Below, in pieces: positions 52,170 through 59,589 of a stretch of 64,000 nucleotides of DNA. Position 1 is the stretch's first letter. Every line of letters starts with the position of its first letter. Made by a program: the position numbers and the translations under genes. A model generated the notes under the pieces. That model saw only the letters and a list, made by a program, of their open reading frames with translations. It was not told the origin of the DNA and ran no database searches. Origin of the DNA: an uncultured archaeon (GTDB lineage: Archaea; Asgardarchaeota; Heimdallarchaeia; Heimdallarchaeales; Heimdallarchaeaceae); assembly GCA_964549075.1 (NCBI GenBank), contig CAZJUB010000010.1, positions 1,575 through 65,574 of the forward strand, read 5' to 3'.

Positions 52170-52427
52170 CTAAAATCCTACTACCTTTGCTTTTAATTCC
52201 AAAGCTTTATTCCTTTCTTTTATAAGGTCTTTCTTGATTAAATAATCTTGATATATTTTATTTGCAGGACATTTATTTTCATAATGTTGACATTCGAAGA
52301 TTGTTTCTGCAATCTGATCAATCATTTTGAAAATTTCTTCTTCTTTCTCAAACTCATATTTATGTAATTCAGCAAGATTCTTGAAAGATCTTCTGAAGAT
52401 ACTTTTATATTCTGTTTTCAGTGCCAT
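52170..52427 (-). CDS. Small helical protein, family S (copy S1)
   Basis: 85 aa. It is a paralog of 52536-52799 (shared SFK.L.E...YEF..EE..F....Q.AE). A T-rich tract follows on the minus strand. Confidence 0.5.
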   Translation of the reverse strand: MALKTEYKSIFRRSFKNLAELHKYEFEKEEEIFKMIDQIAETIFECQHYENKCPANKIYQDYLIKKDLIKERNKALELKAKVVGF

Positions 52428-52535
52428 TTTACTACCACCTCTAAGTTATTTTATAGTCTATATTTATTATATAATGCTCACAACTTGTTAACACAACTTG
52501 TGTCATTCATACTAAAAGAAGAATAAGATGAGGGA

Positions 52536-52799
52536 TTAAAGTAAAGAACCTTTATGCAGAATTAGAGTGGTTAAATGTTTAGTTCTCTCTTGCGAGATTT
52601 TTTTTTGGAGGAGATGCTGTTCATAAATTTGATGATCAGCTGAATACTCGTTGTCTAGGTTATAATTCAACATGTTTTCTGCAACTTGTGTTAGGAGTTG
52701 AAACAAGTTCTCTTCTTCAACAAACTCATACTCATATATTTCTTTTAGAGCTTTGAAACTTCTGATTATCTCATTTTTCTGTTCGACTCTTAATACCAT
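52536..52799 (-). CDS. Small helical protein, family S (copy S2)
   Basis: 87 aa. It is a paralog of S1 and is divergent from wHTH paralog P1. Confidence 0.5.
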   Translation of the reverse strand: MVLRVEQKNEIIRSFKALKEIYEYEFVEEENLFQLLTQVAENMLNYNLDNEYSADHQIYEQHLLQKKISQERTKHLTTLILHKGSLL

Positions 52800-52970
52800 T
52801 TTATTTCACCGAGTTTATTTTGTGTTGGAGAGACCATTCTCAGTCTCTGAGAAGACTTTCCCACAAAAATATATAAAGTTTTCTTATTGTGTGAGAATTG
52901 CAAGTCAGATGTTCAGAATATCTTCTTTGTTCAACAGAAAACTATTTAAACATCTAAAGGATAAATTTAA

Positions 52971-53816
52971 ATGGTGAAGGAAAAAATGAGCGTACCAGAG
53001 CCTCACGACGTAATTACTTACGAGCAAAAAGCTGTCGAAATTGTTAAGGAGAGGGAAAAAGTTGAAATGTTTTATGATCAAGGATACTGGCCTATTCTGG
53101 TAATTTTGAGAGAGGGACCTCTTACTGTCAGAGACATGACTGAGAAATCCAATAATCTTATTGAAAAGAAACTTAACCCTGTACTTGATAAAGAACTTAG
53201 AGATTATAAAGTAACTAAAGAAGAACTTGAGGAAGAACTCAAGAAAGTTTCCACTTTTTCTCCTGAAGAGAAAAAAATGTTAAAGGAAAAAGAAACTTTT
53301 TCTGATTCTGACATTAAAATAATAAAAAATAGGATAAAAGAGTACAGGTTAAGTAAAGAACAAAAATCAGAAAAAACTATCTACAGATATGTTAAAGATT
53401 TAACTCAAGCTGGACTTATAGTCCCAGCTGGGCAGAGAGTTATAACAGGAAAAACTGCAACTGAAACTCTTTATTCAAGAAAAGCAAGAATTTTCATTAT
53501 CAGACAACATCCAGATGATACTTGGCATTGTGATGAATGTAAATCAACACTTTCCAAGGTTAGTAAAATGCTTGCACTATCAATGGGAATTAAAGAACCA
53601 AAAGTAGAAAATCTCGCGAAATTGATGTCCAATATTGATATGTATCATGAAGATGAACAGATAAGATTGTTTGAACAATATGATGATGAGATAAAGGAAA
53701 TGATTAAAGATTGTTCTTTTACAGAAACAAATCGTGTTCTTGAAACCTTCAAAACCATTTATTTGATATTGAAAGTTGATGAATTTAAGGATGAAATAAA
53801 GAAATGCTTTGAATAA
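52971..53816 (+). CDS. Lineage-specific winged-helix protein, paralog P1 (with K/E-rich insert)
   Basis: ILVILREGPLTVRDM, TIYRYVKDLTQAGLIVPAGQRVITGKTATETLYSRKARIF, and C-terminal EFKDEIKKCFE. Confidence 0.65.
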   Translation: MVKEKMSVPEPHDVITYEQKAVEIVKEREKVEMFYDQGYWPILVILREGPLTVRDMTEKSNNLIEKKLNPVLDKELRDYKVTKEELEEELKKVSTFSPEEKKMLKEKETFSDSDIKIIKNRIKEYRLSKEQKSEKTIYRYVKDLTQAGLIVPAGQRVITGKTATETLYSRKARIFIIRQHPDDTWHCDECKSTLSKVSKMLALSMGIKEPKVENLAKLMSNIDMYHEDEQIRLFEQYDDEIKEMIKDCSFTETNRVLETFKTIYLILKVDEFKDEIKKCFE

Positions 53817-53885
53817 GCAGTTTTATTCATTCTTTACTGTTTTTTGAGATAAGTTTTAAGATAAGGTTTACTTTATCTCAGTAAT

Positions 53886-54310
53886 ATGGGAATCACAGAC
53901 GTTCTGGATGATGGATTCGTACAGGATGATGTCATAAAAATAATGGATCCTAGAATTATAAAGTCCTTGAGAAAGACAAGTATAAATTCATTCTTAATAT
54001 TTTGAAAGAAAAGCCAATGACAGCAAGGGAAAGAGTATGAAAATACAATAATAGTATTGAAATTGAGTAGAGAAAAACAATGAATAACAAACTAGATATA
54101 TCAGAGGAGCTTTGGCAAAAATCTTTTAAGCTTATGCAAAAGAAATGTATTGCTGAACGCACCCCTTACAGATATCTCAAAGTATTAACATCAATAAAAT
54201 TATTAGCAAAAGTAGGTAGAAGATCAATATAAGGAAGAAGAGCAACTGAAGTACTTTACGCAAGAAGTGCGAAAACTATCCTTGTTGGTCAAGAGTCTAT
54301 TGAAATGTAA
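53886..54310 (+). pseudogene. Decayed, 3'-truncated copy of the winged-helix paralog family
   Basis: Reads MGITDVLDDGFVQDDVIKIMDPRIIK, then a frameshift, then VLEKDKYKFILNILKEKPMTARERV*KYNN...E*...RTPYRYLKVLTSIKLLAKVGRRSI*GRRATEVLYARSAKTILVGQESIEM*. It is colinear with P2 (54387-55070). Confidence 0.7.
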
Positions 54311-54386
54311 GAAAGAGTTTAGAAAGGCAATATTTTCCTCTTTTTTAGAAAAGTTTTAAGATAGATTTTTCTGTACTCGTTTTATA

Positions 54387-55070
54387 ATGGAATTTAGAGA
54401 TTTTCTAGATGCTAATTTTAAGAAAGAAGTTATACGAATCATTCGTGACCCTAAACTTATCGAATACTTTGAAGATGAGAATTTCTCTATTATCCTTAAC
54501 CTGTTAAGACAAAAACCAATGACTGTTAAGGAATTAACTAAAAAATATAACGAGTATGTTACAGAGAAAGGTACCAAAGAGAGATTACCTCAACAGCGTA
54601 TTATAGAAAATCTTCGCACAGATAAAACAATGTATAGGTACATTAAATCACTAACGAAATCCAAACTTATTGCTCCAGCTGGTCAACGTATGGTAATAGG
54701 TAAGACTCAAACAGAGGTACTTTATGACAGAACTGCTAAGATTTTTTATGTAAGTCAAGAGTCTCTGGATTGGTGGTTAGGGGAGGAAGGTGTAAGGACG
54801 GTAACTACTGTAGCAGGTATAGTAGGCTTATTACAAAAAAAGACTAATCCTTCAGTTGAGTGCCTTACACAGTTAATTCATCAATTATTGCAAGAAAATG
54901 AAGAAGTGTTATTTAATCTATTTACTGAAAAACAAGATGAAGTTACAAAACTTATTTATGCAATAGAAGGTAGAGAAACAGACCGAGCCATCTATATTAC
55001 GAGCATTCTTCTTGCTATATTAAATAGTGATGAATATAAGAAAGAACTAGAGAAATGTCTCGGGGATTAA
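54387..55070 (+). CDS. Lineage-specific winged-helix protein, paralog P2
   Basis: ILNLLRQKPMTVKELTKKYNEY, TMYRYIKSLTKSKLIAPAGQRMVIGKTQTEVLYDRTAKIF, and C-terminal DEYKKELEKCLGD. Confidence 0.65.
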   Translation: MEFRDFLDANFKKEVIRIIRDPKLIEYFEDENFSIILNLLRQKPMTVKELTKKYNEYVTEKGTKERLPQQRIIENLRTDKTMYRYIKSLTKSKLIAPAGQRMVIGKTQTEVLYDRTAKIFYVSQESLDWWLGEEGVRTVTTVAGIVGLLQKKTNPSVECLTQLIHQLLQENEEVLFNLFTEKQDEVTKLIYAIEGRETDRAIYITSILLAILNSDEYKKELEKCLGD

Positions 55071-55123
55071 TAAAATGCTGTTTTTCGCGAGGTAAGTATT
55101 TATACTAGTTTTTTCTAGCCTTT

Positions 55124-55462
55124 TTGATGACAGAAATAGCTTATCATTTACTTTGTGATTGTAAAAAAGCAGTGAATGCCTATTCCTGTCCAGTAGGTTT
55201 GCTCAAACCTACTACTAAATTCAATTATGATTATTATCATTGCCCACATTGCAATTTTGATTATATATGTGATCATTCTATAAAGATAGAATTTGAGTAT
55301 GATGAGAAAGGTCTCCCTGAACAAAATCAGATCGTATGTGGCCGATGTGGTTCACGATTAGAAGCTTACATGTGGCCCAAACCACCAGAAGAGTTAGAAG
55401 AAGGAGCATATGGTACAAAGTATGTAAGTATTTACAGACGCAATTACCGATACTCGATATAA
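55124..55462 (+). CDS. Small Cys-rich (zinc-ribbon-like) protein, family A, second copy
   Basis: HLLCDCKKAVNAYSCP...YHCPHCNFDYIC...CGRCGSRLEAYMWP is colinear with 40750-41010. Confidence 0.6.
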   Translation: MMTEIAYHLLCDCKKAVNAYSCPVGLLKPTTKFNYDYYHCPHCNFDYICDHSIKIEFEYDEKGLPEQNQIVCGRCGSRLEAYMWPKPPEELEEGAYGTKYVSIYRRNYRYSI

Positions 55463-55500
55463 GTGAAAACAGAGCTCAAAGAAGAATTTCAACCGATTCA

Positions 55501-55818
55501 TCAATTTATATAAGAATAACTGGATGTACTTTTATCTGATTTTCTTTTGGAAGAGTTAGTGTAACTATATTCTTCCGTTATGTCCTTAAGCGTTCGATTT
55601 ATAATAGAATTAGGATTAAAGAACTTTAAATCAAAAGTCGCTGAACATTTGGAACATTCACATGTAACAATATCAAAATGGTAACCTTCCTCAATAATAG
55701 GCATTTTATGTTTTGAAAAACAACCACTACTTTCTTTACATTCTACACAATACATTTTTCTTATGAAGATTTCAACATCCGCTGATTTTTCTACGGGTAT
55801 TATAAATTCATACACCAT
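55501..55818 (-). CDS. Small Cys-rich protein, family B
   Basis: The pattern CVECKESSGC...TCECSKCS suggests a zinc ribbon. It lies downstream of P4-P3 on the same strand. Confidence 0.45.
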   Translation of the reverse strand: MVYEFIIPVEKSADVEIFIRKMYCVECKESSGCFSKHKMPIIEEGYHFDIVTCECSKCSATFDLKFFNPNSIINRTLKDITEEYSYTNSSKRKSDKSTSSYSYIN

Positions 55819-55997
55819 CTATTATCATCTTTGCTGGTTTTCCAACAGACACCCTTATGAAATATTTATCAAAATAGATATAGATATCTTTCCATAGTTG
55901 CATCAGACTATCTGTTTTTATTCTGGTTTTTTAATAATTAATTTAACTGATTAACATATACTGTATAATCTTTGTGATACATGTAATAACAGTTTAT

Positions 55998-56630
55998 TTA
56001 AGGAAAGCATGTTTTTAGATTCATGTCATATTGTTCTGATTCTAAAAGAATCATTACTAAAGAAAAAAGGTTGATAACTTCTCTAACTTCTTCTTGACTA
56101 CTACCTGTAAAGATAGCTCTTAAAGAATCACTGTAGTTAGTAACATAGCCCTTTAGTTTTTCTGTAGGAATTGAATAAATATGTATGAGTAATTTTTTAA
56201 AATTAGGAGTATCAACAGGTGATTCTCCAGTGTAAAAGGCAAGTAATTGTCTTATAGTGTTCAATAATTCCTTACCGTTTTCTGTATCCCAAAAACCTTC
56301 TGACATCATTGTCATAGGGATCATTAAAAGCGCTTTACGTGAGTATAACTGAGTAGCTGCTGTACTACCGCGAATTAATCTTTGACCTGCTTTAATCACC
56401 AAGTCTACATCCTGGAGGGATTTAATATAATTGTATATTGTAATTTCTGATTTTGGTTTAGAAACATGTTTGTTGTACTCAAAAGTAATTTCCTTTATTG
56501 GCATCGGACCTTTTCGAAGAAGATCTAATAATATTGCAAATTTTGGATCATTATATGCCTTTAATTGTTTCTTATCCTCTACAATCATCAAAGGTTCAGG
56601 TTCTTGGATAATATAATCTTCGCGACTCAT
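55998..56630 (-). CDS. Lineage-specific winged-helix protein, paralog P3
   Basis: ILLDLLRKGPMPIKEITFEYNKH, TIYNYIKSLQDVDLVIKAGQRLIRGSTAATQLYSRKA, and C-terminal EQYDMNLKTCFP. It starts 7 nt after the P4 stop. Confidence 0.65.
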   Translation of the reverse strand: MSREDYIIQEPEPLMIVEDKKQLKAYNDPKFAILLDLLRKGPMPIKEITFEYNKHVSKPKSEITIYNYIKSLQDVDLVIKAGQRLIRGSTAATQLYSRKALLMIPMTMMSEGFWDTENGKELLNTIRQLLAFYTGESPVDTPNFKKLLIHIYSIPTEKLKGYVTNYSDSLRAIFTGSSQEEVREVINLFSLVMILLESEQYDMNLKTCFP

Positions 56631-56637
56631 TAAACCA

Positions 56638-57372
56638 TCAATCCTTATTTGTACGTGAGGGGAAACATTTCCTTAGTTCTTCAGCATATTTTTCTTGAGA
56701 TAGCACCATTATTAACACATTAAGAACTTCTGTAGTTCTTGAAAGTTGACTAAAACTTAAAGGTGAAACAATTTCATCTATCTGGTCTGAGTACTTAATA
56801 AAAAGATTACTAACCTCATTTCTGAAATTAGCAAATATTCTATGAAATAAAGCAATTAGATTTTCTTCAGTTAAACCTTCAGATAAAGTGAAAATAGTTA
56901 GAAGTTTTTTAGTTTTTGCTAAAATAGATTTACTTTCATCAGAATCCCAGTATTTTTCAGTCATTACAGAAGAGTAGTAAAGTTTAGCTCTTCGACTATA
57001 AAGTACTTCAGTTGCAGTTTTCCCACTTAAGATCCTCTGACCAGCTTTAAGTATCAAATCTTTTTTTACCAAATCCATCAAATAATTATAAATACTAGTC
57101 TGTTTTTTAGGAGAATCAGCGATCTTATTATATTCATCAACAAGTTCTTTAATCGTCATTGGACCTTTGTTTAGAGCTTCAAAAATGGGACTATACCTTG
57201 AGTCACTGAGTAAACGAAAAGAGTCTTCATCCTCAATGATGAAAATCTGTTGTTGTTCCTCAATAATAAAATCTTTGTAATCCATTAATTCACGTCTAAG
57301 CTCAGTGCTCAAATAAATTTCGCCCACACCAATATAAATATTTTTGAAAAGCCGTTTATTTTTATTGAGCAA
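56638..57372 (-). CDS. Lineage-specific winged-helix protein, paralog P4
   Basis: IFEALNKGPMTIKELVDEYNK, SIYNYLMDLVKKDLILKAGQRILSGKTATEVLYSRRAKLY, and C-terminal EKYAEELRKCFP. The likely true start is the ATG at 57285 (MDYKDF...). Confidence 0.65.
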   Translation of the reverse strand: MLNKNKRLFKNIYIGVGEIYLSTELRRELMDYKDFIIEEQQQIFIIEDEDSFRLLSDSRYSPIFEALNKGPMTIKELVDEYNKIADSPKKQTSIYNYLMDLVKKDLILKAGQRILSGKTATEVLYSRRAKLYYSSVMTEKYWDSDESKSILAKTKKLLTIFTLSEGLTEENLIALFHRIFANFRNEVSNLFIKYSDQIDEIVSPLSFSQLSRTTEVLNVLIMVLSQEKYAEELRKCFPSRTNKD

Positions 57373-57426
57373 TAATCAACTGTTGTGCGAAAACTTTATA
57401 TAATTCTTGAGAGATATTCTCAATAG

Positions 57427-57729
57427 ATGAGAATATTAGGATTTGATTCGATGGGAACAAATCAAGAGAACATGAAAAAAAACCCATTTCACATAATCTA
57501 TGAATTATCAAAGAAGCTAAAAGATATTGATGAACTGACAGACGAGAAATTATTGATAATCTTTGATGAAATGGCAGAGGAGTTTGCAAGCGGAAGTTAT
57601 GGGTATCAATACTTACCAGACTTTCTTATAGGATATAGTGAAGCGCAACAAGAGAAAAAACCGGTTAAAAAACGAAAAATTTCAGGAAGCATAGTTCTGG
57701 ACGGAAACTATTGCTTCCTTTCACGATAA
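57427..57729 (+). CDS. Small hypothetical protein, possible distant member of family S (S4)
   Basis: ELTDEKLLIIFDEMAEEFA resembles EFEKEEEIFKMIDQIAETIF of S1. It is divergent from P4. The start is uncertain (an internal MKKNPFH is possible). Confidence 0.35.
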   Translation: MRILGFDSMGTNQENMKKNPFHIIYELSKKLKDIDELTDEKLLIIFDEMAEEFASGSYGYQYLPDFLIGYSEAQQEKKPVKKRKISGSIVLDGNYCFLSR

Positions 57730-57790
57730 AAAGAAGTTAAGAAGCATGCTGATTTGAAGCTCACCTTTTCAAACTTCTTCTTTCTTCTTT

Positions 57791-58453
57791 TTAACAACCA
57801 CATTTCTGTAGTTCTTCCTTAAAATTATCACTATTCATAATCAAAATTACTTTTCCTAATAAATCAAAAATCTTATCTACATCCTTGAAAGAATAACCTG
57901 ATATAAGATCATTAATTGTATCATCATTCTTCTCAAAAAACGCAGCTAGTTCATTATTAGTAGTATTAGCAGTCTTACTCATTAGTTTTGCAAGATTTTC
58001 AGAGTTTATGTTCTTACAAGTATATAATGTAAGCAACTCTTTTAAAGTCTCAATCATTTTTTGATTATCCGTATCTGGTTTGTAACCTTGATCATCAGTC
58101 CAATAATCTTCTTTAAGTGCTAGATTCCAAAAAATCTTAGCTGTGCGACCGTAGAGAGTCTCAGTCGCAGATTGACCAGTAGTTATTATTTTACCTACTT
58201 CAGCTACTAGATTATATTTAGCAAGTTCCTTGAGATATCTATAAATTGTCATTTCAGATTTCGGTTCAGAAGCAAGCTCATTATATTTTTCAACAAGTTC
58301 TTTAATAGTCATTGGACCTTCTCGTAGAATTATTATAATTGGTTCATAATTCTTATCAAATAATTTCTCTACTGTTTCCTCATCTCTGATAACCATTACA
58401 CCCAGTTGTTCTCTAGTTATTACTCTCTGTTGCTTTGAACTCATTTTATTCAC
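57791..58453 (-). CDS. Lineage-specific winged-helix protein, paralog P5
   Basis: IIIILREGPMTIKELVEKYNEL, TIYRYLKELAKYNLVAEVGKIITTGQSATETLYGRTAKIF, and C-terminal DNFKEELQKCGC. Confidence 0.65.
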   Translation of the reverse strand: MNKMSSKQQRVITREQLGVMVIRDEETVEKLFDKNYEPIIIILREGPMTIKELVEKYNELASEPKSEMTIYRYLKELAKYNLVAEVGKIITTGQSATETLYGRTAKIFWNLALKEDYWTDDQGYKPDTDNQKMIETLKELLTLYTCKNINSENLAKLMSKTANTTNNELAAFFEKNDDTINDLISGYSFKDVDKIFDLLGKVILIMNSDNFKEELQKCGC

Positions 58454-58614
58454 TTTTTCTATTCACATAAAGTATGTTTTACATATTAATAAGCGTTTTT
58501 ATACGAGAAGATATTGCAATTTTCATTTGATGATGGCAACATTTTCTTATAACGAAAGGTTTATTAACATTAAATGAAATACTATTCTTAAGCAATAAGA
58601 ATGGTGAAACAAAA

Positions 58615-58854
58615 ATGGCAACAGCAACAGTATCAAAAACAATAGAAATCTCAGATTTAAAATGTTGTAAGGAAGAATCAATATATGAACGCCTTCAGAG
58701 ATTAACTGTAAGCGCAAATAATCATTATAAAGTAGAAACCAACAGTATTTCAACTCAAACACCTCAACTGAAATCAGTTGATACACTATTTAAAATTCAC
58801 AAAGATAAAGCAATTAGAACAGCTCTACTCCACAGAGGATCCCTTAACTATTAG
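58615..58854 (+). CDS. Small hypothetical protein (S3), divergent from P5
   Basis: 79 aa. A T-rich tract at 58855-58887 follows the stop. The C-terminal LLHRGSL resembles LILHKGSL of S2. It is preferred over the overlapping minus-strand ORF. Confidence 0.35.
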   Translation: MATATVSKTIEISDLKCCKEESIYERLQRLTVSANNHYKVETNSISTQTPQLKSVDTLFKIHKDKAIRTALLHRGSLNY

Positions 58855-59028: not shown

Positions 59029-59472
59029 ATGAATTGGAAGAGATTTGTTCGCAAATATTCCGTTAGATTCGGAATGTATGTTTTAATTACTGCGGTTCTA
59101 ATGACTGCAAGTGTTCTAATATATAATAGCAAATTAACACCATATATTTATTCAAATGACAGTTGGGACCAGATTGAGCCATTTGTTCCTACTACAAACA
59201 TATCCTATAATATTCTTTTTGACCAACACTCCCACACCTATTATAGTGATGGTATTTTAAGTGTTGAACAAAACATCAGATGGCACATTGCCATGGGATT
59301 TAATGCTGGTGCGATTACAGATCATAACAACTTGAAAAGTTCAGAGGAGATTGCGGAGTTAACTCCAAAATATCAAGATCAGATTTCAATTATTCAAGGT
59401 ATGGAATGAACCACACAGAGAATTCACTTGAATTTCTTAGGTATCTCTACCTGGGATTTACCTATACCGTAA
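59029..59472 (+). pseudogene. Truncated paralog of the PHP phosphoesterase with a TGA at a conserved Trp codon
   Basis: It is colinear with 12758-13339, with roughly half the residues identical by eye, including DQHSHT.YSDG and DHN. QGME-TGA-TTQRIHLNFLGI aligns to QGMEWTTNRVHLNFIGI. The frame ends at 59472 and the C-terminal half is absent. Confidence 0.7.
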
Positions 59473-59589
59473 TCAGCTGTAGTATGAAATCTTGATCAAT
59501 CTTGCCAACAAGAAATTTTGGGATAATTTTTGAAAGGAAAATTGAGCAACGACAAAAAAGAGTAAAAAATGAAAAGAATGATAACAAAA

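What the first reader, a model, noticed from the sequence alone, without database searches (positions are those of the whole stretch)
52170..58854. Paralog island: five intact and one decayed copy of an uncharacterised winged-helix protein, each partnered with small ORFs
About 6.7 kb holds P1-P5 (52971-53816, 54387-55070, 55998-56630, 56638-57372, 57791-58453) and a pseudogene (53886-54310). All share the same blocks: IL..LR.GPMT[IV]KEL; T[IM]Y[RN]Y[IL]K.L; AGQR...G.TATE.LY.R.AK; and a C-terminal [EDN].[YF]K.EL.KC with an invariant near-terminal Cys. No enzymatic domain is visible. The neighbourhood pattern repeats. Three copies sit divergently from a small ORF (S2/P1, S4/P4, S3/P5). Two transcription units end in small Cys-rich ORFs (P2 then 55124; P4-P3 then 55501). 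A locally amplified and decaying DNA-binding family paired with tiny partner proteins looks more like an accessory or conflict-type locus, or a regulator/anti-regulator module family, than like housekeeping regulators. I cannot assign a function.
Basis: partly seen in the sequence, partly recalled or inferred. Interest (0 to 1): 0.75.

Follow-up and report, generated by a model that had tools for sequence, protein, structure and literature searches.

The report
Asgard regulator gene array with operator
This 6.7-kb stretch of a Heimdallarchaeial genome is an old, conserved cluster of five related DNA-binding regulators (plus one dead copy) that most likely switch off neighbouring tiny-protein genes by binding one shared 17-base palindrome, a regulator-and-binding-site pair found across Asgard archaea; it is not a fast-evolving conflict island.

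Summary
Five intact paralogs, one decayed copy and six small ORFs lie at the stated coordinates.

The proteins are not orphans. Sequence (E=1.9e-6) and predicted fold (Foldseek E=1e-9, near full length) both place them with PH1932 (PDB 1ULY/2CWE), an ArsR-type winged-helix factor with a C-terminal helical domain. The family has about 400 clusters at 50% identity, and every named source is Asgard apart from two contigs labelled Bathyarchaeia.

The island is ancient. Each of P1-P5 has 1:1 orthologues (54-76% identity) in syntenic loci of other Heimdallarchaeia, with the same flanking genes. The small ORFs are conserved proteins: S1, S2 and S3 form one family, and C1 is 88-91% identical.

The new result is a 17-bp palindrome, TTCTYA-N5-TRAGAA. 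It occurs four times in the window (0.17 expected), always in the island's divergent intergenic regions. Three copies lie 14-17 nt downstream of the S2, S3 and S4 TATA boxes. In Loki-, Thor-, Hermod- and Odinarchaeota it sits upstream of the single-copy family gene and, in five loci, in front of a 45-aa peptide gene.

Best reading: autoregulated repressors controlling small-protein genes. The signal and the small proteins' function remain unknown. Defence, phage and toxin-antitoxin searches were negative.

The parts
52170..52427 (-). S1, an 85-aa small protein of the S family
   Evidence: Orthologues are 67-69% identical. It is a paralog of S2 (hhalign probability 97.8%). Codon-position differences are 0.19/0.12/0.30.
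52432..52502 (-). S1 promoter: tandem palindrome CACAAGTTGTG-tta-ACAAGTTGTG (52479-52502), TATA (52461-52471) and SD AGGTGGT (52432-52440)
   Evidence: Conserved in about 15 aligned loci. Near labelled genes this palindrome occurs only upstream of S1-type genes. Coordinates.
52536..52799 (-). S2, an 87-aa small protein of the S family
   Evidence: Orthologues are 75-77% identical. S-family HMM E=3e-42.
52837..52853 (.). Operator O1, TTCTCAgtctcTGAGAA, 16 nt downstream of the S2-facing TATA
   Evidence: The arms are conserved and the 5-nt spacer varies across 18 aligned loci. Strict pattern: 4 matches against 0.17 expected in the window.
52870..52884 (-). BRE/TATA-like element for S2 (AGAAAAC-TTTATATA, read on the minus strand)
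   Evidence: Conserved block in the footprint alignment. Coordinates.
52881..52897 (.). Operator O2, TTCTTAttgtgTGAGAA, overlapping the S2 BRE; centre 44 bp from the centre of O1
   Evidence: partly conserved among loci.
52914..52951 (+). Everted repeat AGAAtatcTTCT (52914-52929) followed by the P1 BRE/TATA ACAGAAAAC-TATTTAAAC (52934-52951); P1 is probably leaderless
   Evidence: Conserved blocks. Coordinates. The TATA lies about 20 nt before ATG 52971.
52971..53816 (+). P1, a 281-aa PH1932-like wHTH regulator with an insertion of about 60 aa in the HTH region
   Evidence: orthologues 76% identical; own clade.
53886..54310 (+). Decayed P2-clade copy (pseudogene) inside the window-specific insertion 53911-54331
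   Evidence: Three-frame translation. blastx best hits are P2-clade members, and it is 37% identical to the window's own P2. Absent from L083, L084, L001 and L002. It carries a duplicated promoter segment at 53846-53879.
54347..54372 (+). P2 promoter region: AGAAAAG-TTTTAAGATA-gaTTTTTCT (AGAA/TTCT-type arms flanking a TATA-like box)
   Evidence: Read directly from the sequence. A 31-bp segment covering it is duplicated (87% identity) upstream of the pseudogene. Not tested for conservation across loci.
54387..55070 (+). P2, a 227-aa PH1932-like wHTH regulator
   Evidence: orthologues 67-72% identical; own clade.
55091..55120 (+). C1's own promoter: GGTAAGTATTTATAC...TTCTAGCC
   Evidence: Conserved in 12 loci, ending about 5-20 nt before the start codon. 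Coordinates.
55127..55462 (+). C1, a Cys-rich protein of about 111 aa here (107 aa in relatives), probably zinc-binding, with 8 invariant Cys/His
   Evidence: 88-91% identical to orthologues. Invariant H8, C11, C13, C22, C40, C43, C49, C72, C75. Codon-position differences 0.07/0.05/0.40. The family is restricted to Heimdallarchaeia-type genomes. It follows the P2-type gene in many loci.
55501..55818 (-). C2, a 105-aa Cys-rich protein
   Evidence: 56% identical to the L001 orthologue. HMM hits in L003, L007, L015 and L051. Its linkage to P3 is looser than the C1-P2 linkage.
55998..56630 (-). P3, a 210-aa PH1932-like wHTH regulator, 7 bp downstream of P4
   Evidence: 62-69% identical; own clade.
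56638..57285 (-). P4, a PH1932-like wHTH regulator (215 aa from ATG 57285; called as 244 aa from TTG 57372)
   Evidence: 70-74% identical. Start revised from orthologue lengths and the conserved BRE/TATA at 57331-57346.
57387..57433 (+). S4 promoter: BRE/TATA GCGAAAAC-TTTATATA (57387-57402), 14 nt, then the operator TTCTCAatagaTGAGAA (57417-57433), which spans the predicted transcription start and ATG 57427
   Evidence: The inverted repeat is present with different spacers in L001, L002, L006 and L007 and in L083 (read).
57427..57729 (+). S4, a small protein of 100 aa (or 92 aa from Met 57451)
   Evidence: 67-68% identical to orthologues. Codon-position differences 0.22/0.14/0.46. No detectable similarity to S1-S3.
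57791..58453 (-). P5, a 220-aa PH1932-like wHTH regulator
   Evidence: AF2 model pLDDT 89. Foldseek top hits 1ULY/2CWE, E=1e-9. Orthologues 52-63% identical. Absent from L002.
58552..58610 (+). S3 promoter: BRE/TATA ACGAAAGG-TTTATTAA (58552-58567), 17 nt, operator TTCTTAagcaaTAAGAA (58585-58601), then SD GGTGAAAC (58603-58610)
   Evidence: Conserved in 6 loci..
58615..58854 (+). S3, a 79-aa divergent member of the S family
   Evidence: 40% identical to the L001 orthologue. The S3 HMM hits 8 loci at E<=2e-17 and cross-hits S2-type proteins. It aligns with S1/S2 and shares the C-terminal LLH.GS motif. There is no codon-position signal in the single pair tested.

Best explanation
The island is a conserved chromosomal regulatory locus of Heimdallarchaeia.

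P1-P5 are paralogous two-domain transcription factors of the PH1932 type: an N-terminal ArsR-like winged helix-turn-helix followed by a C-terminal helical domain. They most likely bind as dimers to a 17-bp palindrome, TTCTYA-N5-TRAGAA. The adjacent pairs P1/P2 and P4/P3 may form heterodimers.

In this island the palindrome lies 14-17 nt downstream of the TATA boxes of the divergently transcribed small-protein genes S2, S3 and S4, so it spans their predicted transcription start sites. A bound factor there should block RNA polymerase recruitment and repress the gene. A second site (O2) and an everted repeat lie between the S2 and P1 promoters and probably give autoregulation. In Asgard lineages with a single family gene, the same palindrome lies upstream of that gene.

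The outputs of the circuit are small proteins of unknown function: the S family and S4 here, and a 45-aa peptide in Loki-, Thor- and Hermodarchaeota. S1 and C1 have their own promoters with different conserved elements. They are syntenically linked to the island but are not under this operator.

Shown here: homology and fold, synteny and orthology, conservation of the small proteins, and conservation, enrichment and position of the palindrome. Inferred: that P1-P5 are the proteins that bind it, that the effect is repression, and that heterodimers form. Unknown: the signal sensed. The C-terminal domain with its nearly invariant penultimate Cys is the obvious candidate sensor.
For: Fold and homology:
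- The profile of P1-P5 hits PH1932 (1ULY/2CWE) at E=1.9e-6 across profile positions 17-195 of 214.
- The AF2 model of P5 (pLDDT 89) has 1ULY/2CWE as its only strong Foldseek hits (E=1e-9, 206 columns). The next hits are DNA-binding repressors: PadR, YodB, SmtB/CzrA and RosR.
- Some relatives carry a precomputed PF01022 hit or are named ArsR family by JGI.

Operator:
- The strict pattern has 4 matches in 64 kb against 0.17 expected, all in the three divergent intergenic regions. Allowing one mismatch adds only one further site.
- Across 926 kb of non-redundant loci there are 62 matches. Of these, 49 lie within -150 to +65 of family or S-gene starts, windows that make up 4.7% of the sequence.
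- In alignments of 18, 6 and 5 orthologous intergenic regions the arms are conserved while the 5-nt spacer varies freely.
- The layout TATA, 14-17 nt, then the inverted repeat recurs at S2, S3 and S4 and at the 45-aa peptide gene in five Loki, Thor and Hermod loci.
- In single-copy lineages the inverted repeat lies 44-71 bp upstream of the family gene.
- The presumed recognition helix (..TIY[RN]Y.K.L, helix 67-79 of the model) and the wing (AGQR..GKTATE) are the most conserved protein segments family-wide. This matches the family-wide conservation of the half-site.

Dimer inference:
- 32 of 143 representative clusters are fused doublets of two near-full copies.
- Tandem pairs arose repeatedly and form paired clades.

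Age and stability:
- 1:1 orthologues, conserved flanking genes and coding-type substitution patterns.
Against: No experiment links these proteins to the palindrome. The assignment rests on co-occurrence and co-conservation.

I derived the pattern from the window before testing it there, so the window statistic is partly circular. The cross-locus test is independent, but the loci were all chosen because they contain a family gene.

Transcription start sites are predicted from TATA spacing, not measured.

The P5, P4 and C1 promoters lack the strict operator, so autoregulation of every paralog is not supported.

All five paralogs have similar recognition helices, so which one binds which site cannot be resolved. 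S1's different palindrome shows that at least one other specificity acts in the locus.

Sites upstream of BRE/TATA (O2 and the everted repeat relative to P1) could mediate activation rather than repression.
Confidence: 0.68

Rival explanations
1. Conflict or accessory island: the wHTH proteins and small ORFs are defence, toxin-antitoxin or anti-defence modules that are being amplified and lost quickly.
For: - Content varies between genomes: L002 lacks P5 and S3, L001 has a 4-gene insertion, and the window has a pseudogene.
- The small proteins have no known function.
- One JGI auto-annotation calls an S1 orthologue 'YafQ toxin'.
- S3 and P5 evolve faster than the rest.
Against: - No PADLOC, PHROGs or viral-fold hit is significant.
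- The YafQ label is not reproduced by Pfam or by a PDB profile search.
- The locus has the same flanking genes and the same order in genomes that differ by 20-40% at the protein level.
- Each paralog is an old orthologous clade.
- P1-P4, S1, S2, S4 and especially C1 show purifying selection similar to the flanking nitroreductase.
- GC content is the same as in the surroundings.
- No integrase, transposase or repeat boundary was seen.
- The family gene is a single autoregulated gene in most other Asgard lineages.
Confidence: 0.07
2. The palindrome is not the binding site of P1-P5. It is an RNA hairpin in the 5' ends of the small-gene transcripts, or the site of some other factor. On this reading the wHTH paralogs have other targets, or a non-transcriptional role as winged-helix scaffold proteins.
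For: - Binding is untested.
- The inverted repeat could fold as a 6-bp stem with a 5-nt loop.
- For S3 it lies between the TATA and the SD, so it may be transcribed.
- Weak sequence hits of the C-terminal half to COMMD8 (E=0.025) and of the wH domain to MCM_C and Cdc6_C show that the fold is not exclusive to transcription factors.
Against: - The arm sequence itself, not just the pairing, is conserved from Heimdall- to Loki-, Thor-, Hermod- and Odinarchaeota, and no compensatory changes were seen. That is the signature of protein-DNA recognition.
- The site tracks the family gene in every lineage examined.
- All strong structural neighbours are sequence-specific repressors.
- O2 and the sites upstream of single-copy family genes abut or precede TATA-like boxes, so they are unlikely to be transcribed.
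Confidence: 0.12
3. Regulator/anti-regulator circuit: the P proteins bind the operator as in the best explanation, but the small S proteins (and the 45-aa peptide elsewhere) are themselves partners that bind the C-terminal domain of the P proteins and release them from DNA. This would give a feedback switch rather than a simple sensor-repressor.
For: - The only operator-controlled genes found are tiny proteins, in every lineage examined.
- In Heimdallarchaeia the S gene copies roughly track the P gene copies, giving the module structure S S | P P and S | P.
- No metabolic or transport target gene is linked.
Against: - There is no interaction evidence; AlphaFold-Multimer was not available.
- S4 and the 45-aa peptide are not detectably homologous to S1-S3, so a common binding mode is not implied.
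- Only about 8 kb around each family gene was scanned, so distant regulon members would have been missed.
Confidence: 0.13

Closest known systems
PH1932 of Pyrococcus horikoshii (PDB 1ULY, 2CWE; Itou et al. 2008, Proteins 70:1631, reference as listed in PMC4486848)
   Same: Two-domain architecture: an N-terminal ArsR-type wHTH and a C-terminal helical domain, about 190-230 aa. The profile match is near full length (E=1.9e-6). It is the only strong Foldseek match (E=1e-9, 206 columns, about 20% identity). It is archaeal.
   Different: - PH1932 comes from Thermococcales, whereas this family is essentially confined to Asgard archaea.
- TM-scores are only 0.53/0.61, which suggests a different domain orientation or a divergent C-terminal domain.
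- The last ~20 profile positions, including the conserved Cys, are not covered by the sequence alignment.
- I found no regulon or operator for PH1932 in the searchable literature.
- Multi-paralog arrays, fused doublets and small-protein partners are features of the Asgard family.
ArsR/SmtB metalloregulators (Pfam HTH_5, PF01022; e.g. SmtB 1SMT, CzrA 1R1U)
   Same: Same wHTH topology (Foldseek probability ~1.0 over about 80-120 residues). They are dimeric repressors that bind palindromic operators overlapping promoters and usually autoregulate (established knowledge of the family).
   Different: - The window proteins score 12-13 bits against a gathering cut-off of 22.
- There is no Cys in the helix-3 region and no conserved His/Asp/Glu alpha-5 cluster among the invariant columns.
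- They carry an extra ~110-aa C-terminal helical domain.
Two-domain PadR regulators (B. subtilis PadR-operator complex, 5X11)
   Same: A wHTH followed by a C-terminal helical dimerisation domain. Third-best structural class (E=3e-3, about 190 aligned columns). They are ligand-released repressors (established knowledge).
   Different: TM-scores are low (0.29/0.36). The Pfam PadR score is 12.7 bits against a cut-off of 27. There is no sequence-level relationship.
Archaeal repressors that act by occluding the transcription start site or TATA/BRE (e.g. MDR1, Phr, TrmB/TrmBL1; general knowledge of archaeal transcription)
   Same: A palindromic site placed between the TATA box and the start site, or overlapping BRE/TATA. 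This geometry is known to block RNA polymerase or TBP/TFB recruitment.
   Different: These are different protein families. The geometry here is predicted from sequence spacing only.

Membership tests
PH1932-like ArsR-type wHTH transcription factors (SCOP family 'PH1932', listed in PMC6316755 Table 1) | N-terminal winged helix-turn-helix with ArsR-like topology | tested here: met
   The AF2 model of P5 has helices 37-45, 50-60 and 67-79 followed by a beta-hairpin wing at 83-103. Foldseek matches the wHTH of 1ULY, SmtB, CzrA and YodB with probability ~1.0.
PH1932-like ArsR-type wHTH transcription factors (SCOP family 'PH1932', listed in PMC6316755 Table 1) | C-terminal all-helical domain after the wing, giving a near-full-length match to PH1932 | tested here: met
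   HMM alignment covers profile positions 17-195 of 214 against PH1932 residues 3-170 of 192, E=1.9e-6. Foldseek: 206 aligned columns, E=1.2e-9, TM 0.53/0.61. The moderate TM-scores mean that the relative domain placement may differ.
PH1932-like ArsR-type wHTH transcription factors (SCOP family 'PH1932', listed in PMC6316755 Table 1) | Homodimer formation and sequence-specific DNA binding | not testable with these tools
   Only indirect evidence: conserved palindromic sites next to the genes and fused doublets. No multimer prediction or binding assay was available.
ArsR/SmtB family (Pfam HTH_5, PF01022) | Score above the Pfam gathering threshold for HTH_5 | tested here: not met
   P1, P2 and P5 score 12.4-13.4 bits against a cut-off of 22. 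P3 and P4 have no hit. Some relatives do carry a precomputed PF01022 hit.
ArsR/SmtB family (Pfam HTH_5, PF01022) | Metal-sensing ligand sets (alpha-3 CxC / alpha-3N, or the alpha-5 Asp/His/Glu cluster) | tested here: not met
   The invariant and nearly invariant columns of A1 and A2 contain no Cys or His in the HTH region. The only conserved Cys is 2-4 residues from the C-terminus.
Toxin-antitoxin or anti-phage defence systems (PADLOC-DB; RelE/YafQ) | Significant match of any island protein to a defence or toxin model | tested here: not met
   PADLOC best E=0.001, covering only the wHTH of CasR/Csa3. PHROGs has nothing below 1e-3. The S family against Pfam and PDB gives no RelE/YafQ hit.
Toxin-antitoxin or anti-phage defence systems (PADLOC-DB; RelE/YafQ) | Patchy, mobile, strain-variable distribution | tested here: not met
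   Order and flanks are conserved in L001, L002, L006, L083 and L084, with 1:1 orthologous clades. Only minor indels were found.
Zinc-ribbon proteins (for C1 and C2) | Two CxxC knuckles on a beta-ribbon | tested here: inconclusive
   C1 has invariant C40xxC43 and C72xxC75 plus H8, C11, C13, C22 and C49. Only weak hits to Elf1, Lar and TFIIB ribbons, E about 0.01-0.1. The AF2 model is poor (pLDDT 59, with a beta-rich core at 68-83). Foldseek gives nothing below E=0.16.

The most novel reading that the evidence does not exclude
A transcription factor and operator pair (PH1932-like wHTH with TTCTCA-N5-TGAGAA) is conserved across the Asgard archaea sampled here, and its only linked targets are genes for tiny proteins: the S family and S4 in Heimdallarchaeia, and a 45-aa basic peptide plus a second micro-ORF next to a candidate structured RNA in Loki-, Thor- and Hermodarchaeota. 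On this reading the small proteins are the real effectors or anti-regulators of a so far unrecognised Asgard-specific switch. Heimdallarchaeia would have expanded it into a five-regulator, four-small-protein network with heterodimeric factors.
Probability: 0.2. Interest if true: 0.7.

Novelty: new variant of a known kind. Interest (0 to 1): 0.5.

Why it matters
Very little is known about gene regulation in Asgard archaea, the closest prokaryotic relatives of eukaryotes. Almost no transcription factor there has an assigned binding site.

This analysis gives a concrete, testable pairing. It links one protein family (about 400 clusters, essentially Asgard-only), one 17-bp palindrome, and a defined set of target promoters that can be tested by EMSA or DAP-seq with recombinant protein, without needing a culture.

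The analysis also shows that several unannotated micro-genes (45-110 aa) are real, conserved and regulated. The repeated appearance of tandem pairs and fused doublets offers a natural series for studying how homodimeric regulators become heterodimers.

It does not point to a new kind of molecular machine. The regulators belong to a known fold class and probably use a conventional repression mechanism.

Tried and rejected
1. Curated family libraries. Pfam and NCBIfam scans of all island proteins gave nothing above cut-off.
2. Defence and phage libraries. PADLOC and PHROGs gave no significant hits. Foldseek against viral structures found only partial wHTH similarity, E>=4e-3.
3. The 'YafQ toxin' label on an S1 orthologue was not reproducible by Pfam scans of 29 S-family members or by a PDB profile search, so I rejected it.
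4. S4 as a member of the S family: hhalign probability is <=1.5% and the HMMs do not cross-hit, so it is not supported. S3 as a member is accepted on the HMM cross-hits, hhalign (52%) and the shared C-terminal motif.
5. C1 structure. The AF2 model has pLDDT 59, and Foldseek gave only non-significant zinc-knuckle and Yippee-like matches. Nothing can be concluded beyond 'probably zinc-binding'.
6. The loose pattern TTCTY-N3-9-RAGAA is not significantly enriched in the window (22 matches against 13.7 expected). Only the strict 17-bp form is.
7. Rfam on the conserved RNA-like region next to the Loki-type 45-aa gene gave no match. Pfam on the peptide gave none either.
8. Eukaryote-like readings of the fold (ESCRT-II, Cdc6/MCM winged helices, COMMD) rest only on marginal sequence hits. 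None appears among the top structural matches, so I rejected them.
9. CaaX-type prenylation of the C-terminal Cys. The Cys lies 2-4 residues from the end in most members and 10 in P4, so the position does not fit C-a-a-X. Rejected.
10. Literature searches for PH1932, 1ULY/2CWE and Asgard ArsR or winged-helix factors found no description of this family, its operator or its partners.

Full report

Yes. ORF listing confirms P1 (52971-53816, +), P2 (54387-55070, +), P3 (55998-56630, -), P4 (56638-57372, -) and P5 (57791-58453, -). It also confirms the small ORFs at 52170-52427, 52536-52799, 55124-55462, 55501-55818, 57427-57729 and 58615-58854.

The five proteins align over their whole length. Pairwise BLASTP E-values are 1e-20 to 1e-45 at 25-36% identity, so the paralogy is far beyond chance.

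Three-frame translation of 53860-54360 shows a broken copy that keeps ILNILKEKPMTARE and TPYRYLKVL...GRRATEVLYARSAKTI, has stops and a frameshift, and lacks the C-terminal domain. Base composition of the island (about 30-32% GC) does not differ from the rest of the window.

**2. What the proteins are**

No Pfam or NCBIfam model reaches its cut-off. There are only weak HTH_5 (ArsR), PadR and MCM_C/Cdc6_C winged-helix hints.

A profile of P1-P5 searched against all PDB sequences finds PH1932 of Pyrococcus horikoshii (1ULY/2CWE) at E=1.9e-6, aligned over profile positions 17-195 of 214. An AlphaFold2 model of P5, built on a 43-sequence alignment, is confident (pLDDT 89, pTM 0.76). It shows a winged helix-turn-helix followed by a five-helix C-terminal domain. 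Foldseek against the PDB returns 1ULY and 2CWE as the only strong hits (E about 1e-9, 206 columns). These are followed at E>=3e-3 by PadR, YodB, SmtB/CzrA, RosR and similar repressors.

[quoted passage not shown] 2008, cited in PMC4486848). It is treated as its own wHTH family in a census of Pyrococcus transcription factors (PMC6316755, Table 1). I found no regulon or operator for it.

So the family is a divergent relative of a structurally known, functionally uncharacterised archaeal regulator class.

**3. Distribution**

A word-indexed search of 5.8 billion proteins gave 118 hits. Every one that carries a name comes from Asgard archaea (Heimdall-, Prometh-, Thorarchaeota, Kariarchaeaceae), and some are called ArsR family by JGI or carry a PF01022 hit. 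The exhaustive HMMER search of 1.84 billion cluster representatives gave 405 clusters at E<=1e-3 and 311 at E<=1e-10.

Of 143 retrieved representatives, 32 are 405-523 aa proteins made of two near-full copies, that is, fused doublets. They keep the ..CF.. motif at the true C-terminus.

A scan of one genome per species (GTDB) returned 80 loci. All are from Asgard lineages (Heimdall, Prometh/Loki, Thor, Hermod, Odin, Kari, Hod) except two contigs of one MAG labelled Bathyarchaeia.

**4. The island is old and syntenic, not recently amplified**

Related Heimdallarchaeial contigs carry the same genes in the same order between the same nitroreductase and GNAT acetyltransferase genes (L001, L002, L006, and the ~91-92% identical L083/L084).

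Each window paralog has a 1:1 orthologue:

| Paralog | Identity to orthologues |
|---|---|
| P1 | 76% |
| P2 | 67-72% |
| P3 | 62-69% |
| P4 | 70-74% |
| P5 | 54% |

Paralogs are only 25-36% identical to one another. In a neighbour-joining tree each of P1-P5 forms its own Heimdallarchaeial clade (P1 with P2, and P3, P4 and P5 together), and the single-copy Loki, Thor and Hermod genes form a separate clade.

Content does vary somewhat. L002 lacks P5 and S3. L001 has four extra genes between C1 and C2. The window alone has the pseudogene.

The pseudogene lies in a 420-bp insertion (53911-54331) flanked by a duplicated ~79-bp copy of the P2 promoter region. It belongs to the P2 clade but is only 37% identical to the resident P2, so it is not a fresh duplicate of the resident P2.

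**5. The small ORFs are genes**

All have orthologues:

| Small ORF | Identity to orthologues |
|---|---|
| S1 | 67-69% |
| S2 | 75-77% |
| S4 | 67-68% |
| C1 | 88-91% |
| C2 | 56% |
| S3 | 40% |

Substitutions are concentrated at third codon positions for C1 (0.07/0.05/0.40), S1, S2, S4 and C2. S3 shows no such signal in the one pair available.

S1 and S2 are paralogs (hhalign probability 97.8%). S3 joins them, on the basis of HMM cross-hits, a 52% hhalign probability and a shared C-terminal LLH.GS[FL] motif. S4 is unrelated by sequence.

Both the S family (32 database hits) and the C1 family (27 hits, in 107-aa and 86-aa subfamilies) are confined to Heimdallarchaeia-type genomes and are unannotated. 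One 'YafQ toxin' auto-annotation could not be reproduced.

C1 has eight invariant Cys/His and is probably zinc-binding. Its model was too poor for fold assignment.

**6. Conserved architecture**

HMM mapping of all loci shows two modules:

- Module A: `S< S< | P1> P2> C1>`, found in at least 15 distinct MAGs.
- Module B: `S3< | P5> S4< | P4> P3> C2>`, found in four further genomes.

The window has both, back to back. In Loki-, Thor-, Hermod- and Odinarchaeota the family gene is nearly always single and has no S or C homologue nearby (53 of 83 sources have one copy). Tandem pairs without S or C arose independently in several lineages.

**7. The cis-element (the main new result)**

Aligning the S2-P1 intergenic region from 18 loci reveals two oppositely oriented BRE/TATA-like elements. 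An inverted repeat, TTCTCA-N5-TGAGAA, lies 16 nt downstream of the S2-facing TATA. Its arms are conserved while its 5-nt spacer differs between loci.

The same 17-bp repeat lies 17 nt downstream of the S3 TATA and is followed by a GGTGA Shine-Dalgarno. It also lies 14 nt downstream of the S4 TATA, where it spans the predicted leaderless start. It is conserved in 6 and 5 loci respectively.

The strict pattern TTCTYA-N5-TRAGAA has four matches in the 64-kb window against 0.17 expected (0 of 100 shuffles reach 4). All four fall in the three divergent intergenic regions, at 52837, 52881, 57417 and 58585. Allowing one mismatch adds only one further site. A looser pattern is not enriched.

Because I derived the pattern from the window, the independent test is the other loci. 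There are 62 matches in 926 kb, and 49 of them lie within -150 to +65 of a family or S-gene start. Those windows make up 4.7% of the sequence.

In the single-copy lineages the repeat lies 44-71 bp upstream of the family gene, abutting an AT-rich box. A second, degenerate site that keeps the TGAGAA arm lies about 44 bp further on. That spacing equals the O1-O2 centre distance in the window.

In five Loki, Hermod and Thor loci a further copy, in the same TATA-N16-repeat-SD layout, precedes a conserved 45-aa basic peptide gene (MSKRKINFARIGVGERAALG...RRGSKW). That gene is followed by a second micro-ORF and a conserved segment with a long-range stem. Neither matches Pfam or Rfam.

**8. Other promoters in the island**

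- S1 has its own promoter with a different conserved element, CACAAGTTGTG-N3-ACAAGTTGTG (52479-52502), just upstream of a TATA and SD. Near labelled genes this element occurs only upstream of S1-type genes.
- C1 has a conserved GGTAAATATATATAG...TTCTAGCC element ending about 5-20 nt before its start. It is therefore probably a separate, leaderless transcript rather than the last gene of a P2 operon.
- P4's called N-terminal extension covers a conserved BRE/TATA (57331-57346). The likely start is ATG 57285.
- The P5, P4 and C1 promoters lack the strict operator.

**9. Mechanism proposed**

The palindrome, the dimer-type fold class, the co-conservation of the recognition helix and wing with the half-site, and the site's position over predicted start sites all point the same way. 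They indicate dimeric repressors that occlude RNA polymerase recruitment at S2, S3 and S4 and autoregulate through the shared intergenic regions. This geometry is well known for archaeal repressors (general knowledge).

Fused doublets and recurrent tandem pairs suggest that the adjacent pairs P1/P2 and P4/P3 (7-bp spacing) act as heterodimers.

None of these steps has been shown experimentally. The sensed signal is unknown; the C-terminal helical domain and its nearly invariant penultimate Cys are candidates. The function of the S, C1 and C2 proteins is also unknown.

**10. Comparison with the known, and verdict**

The proteins qualify as PH1932-like by fold and domain architecture. They fail the ArsR/SmtB tests (Pfam threshold, metal ligands) and the defence and toxin-antitoxin tests.

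The 'regulator plus small partner' idea is supported at the level of cis-regulation. The 'amplified, decaying, conflict-type' reading is not supported.

I rate this a new variant of a known kind. It is a conventional class of regulator, but with a previously undescribed operator conserved across Asgard lineages, a lineage-specific five-paralog array, and micro-protein targets. Interest is moderate: it makes Asgard transcriptional regulation directly testable, but it does not overturn expectations.

Noticed in passing
L027:10100-10700 (also L017, L028, L031, L040): In Loki-, Hermod- and Thorarchaeota a second copy of the operator precedes a conserved 45-aa basic peptide gene (MSKRKINFARIGVGERAALGCSNPHPTPNFSRAYKVMTSRRGSKW). 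A second micro-ORF of about 27 aa follows. After that comes a conserved region of about 170 nt with a GATGATG box and a long-range stem (GGGTCTTCCGG...CCGGAAGACCC), which looks like a structured RNA. There is no Rfam or Pfam match.
   Followed up: partly
window:40750-41010 (-): An 86-aa paralog of C1 (HMM E=4e-23, 42% identity, same Cys pattern but lacking the C-terminal tail) lies 14 kb from the island. The 86-aa form is a separate subfamily in the database search.
   Followed up: partly
window:52479-52502: The S1 promoter carries a tandem palindrome (CACAAGTTGTG-tta-ACAAGTTGTG) that is conserved in about 15 loci and differs from the TTCTCA operator. This implies a second DNA-binding specificity acting inside the island.
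   Followed up: partly
window:59029-59533: A 126-aa ORF (59029-59409) is only the N-terminal fragment of a PHP-domain protein (Pfam E=4e-8). It lies largely within a window-specific ~470-bp insertion (59061-59533) absent from L083. L001 and L002 instead carry a 505-aa FAD-dependent oxidase at this position. The right-hand junction of the island is therefore a small indel hotspot.
   Followed up: partly
window:50408-51205 (-): A conserved neighbour (72-75% identical in L001 and L002) is a 265-aa protein with a long coiled coil (weak PspA/IM30 hit, E=9e-5, below cut-off) and a C-terminal winged-helix segment (weak HTH_69 and MarR_2 hits). It is a different wHTH protein, just outside the island.
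   Followed up: no
representative proteins P0120, P0121, P0123 etc.: About 22% of representative clusters of the family are single polypeptides containing two near-full copies (405-523 aa). Their taxonomic origin was not determined.
   Followed up: partly
L050 and L052 (DATKZI010000004.1, DATKZI010000020.1): Two family members lie on contigs of a MAG labelled Bathyarchaeia, the only non-Asgard label among the 80 loci. This could be misbinning, mislabelling or horizontal transfer.
   Followed up: no
L001:12168-15209: L001 has a four-gene insertion inside the island, between C1 and P3: a 189-aa ORF, a 367-aa HTH_24/MarR-like protein, C2, and a 274-aa 2-oxoacid dehydrogenase acyltransferase-like ORF. 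The space between modules A and B therefore tolerates insertions.
   Followed up: no
L017, L027, L028, L031, L040 around the family gene: In the Loki, Hermod and Thor loci the single family gene has conserved neighbours: an upstream 551-557-aa N6-adenine methyltransferase-like gene and a convergent secreted beta-lactamase/serine-hydrolase-like gene of 414-436 aa. In three of the loci (L027, L028, L031) a ~402-aa gene follows the micro-ORF/RNA region.
   Followed up: no
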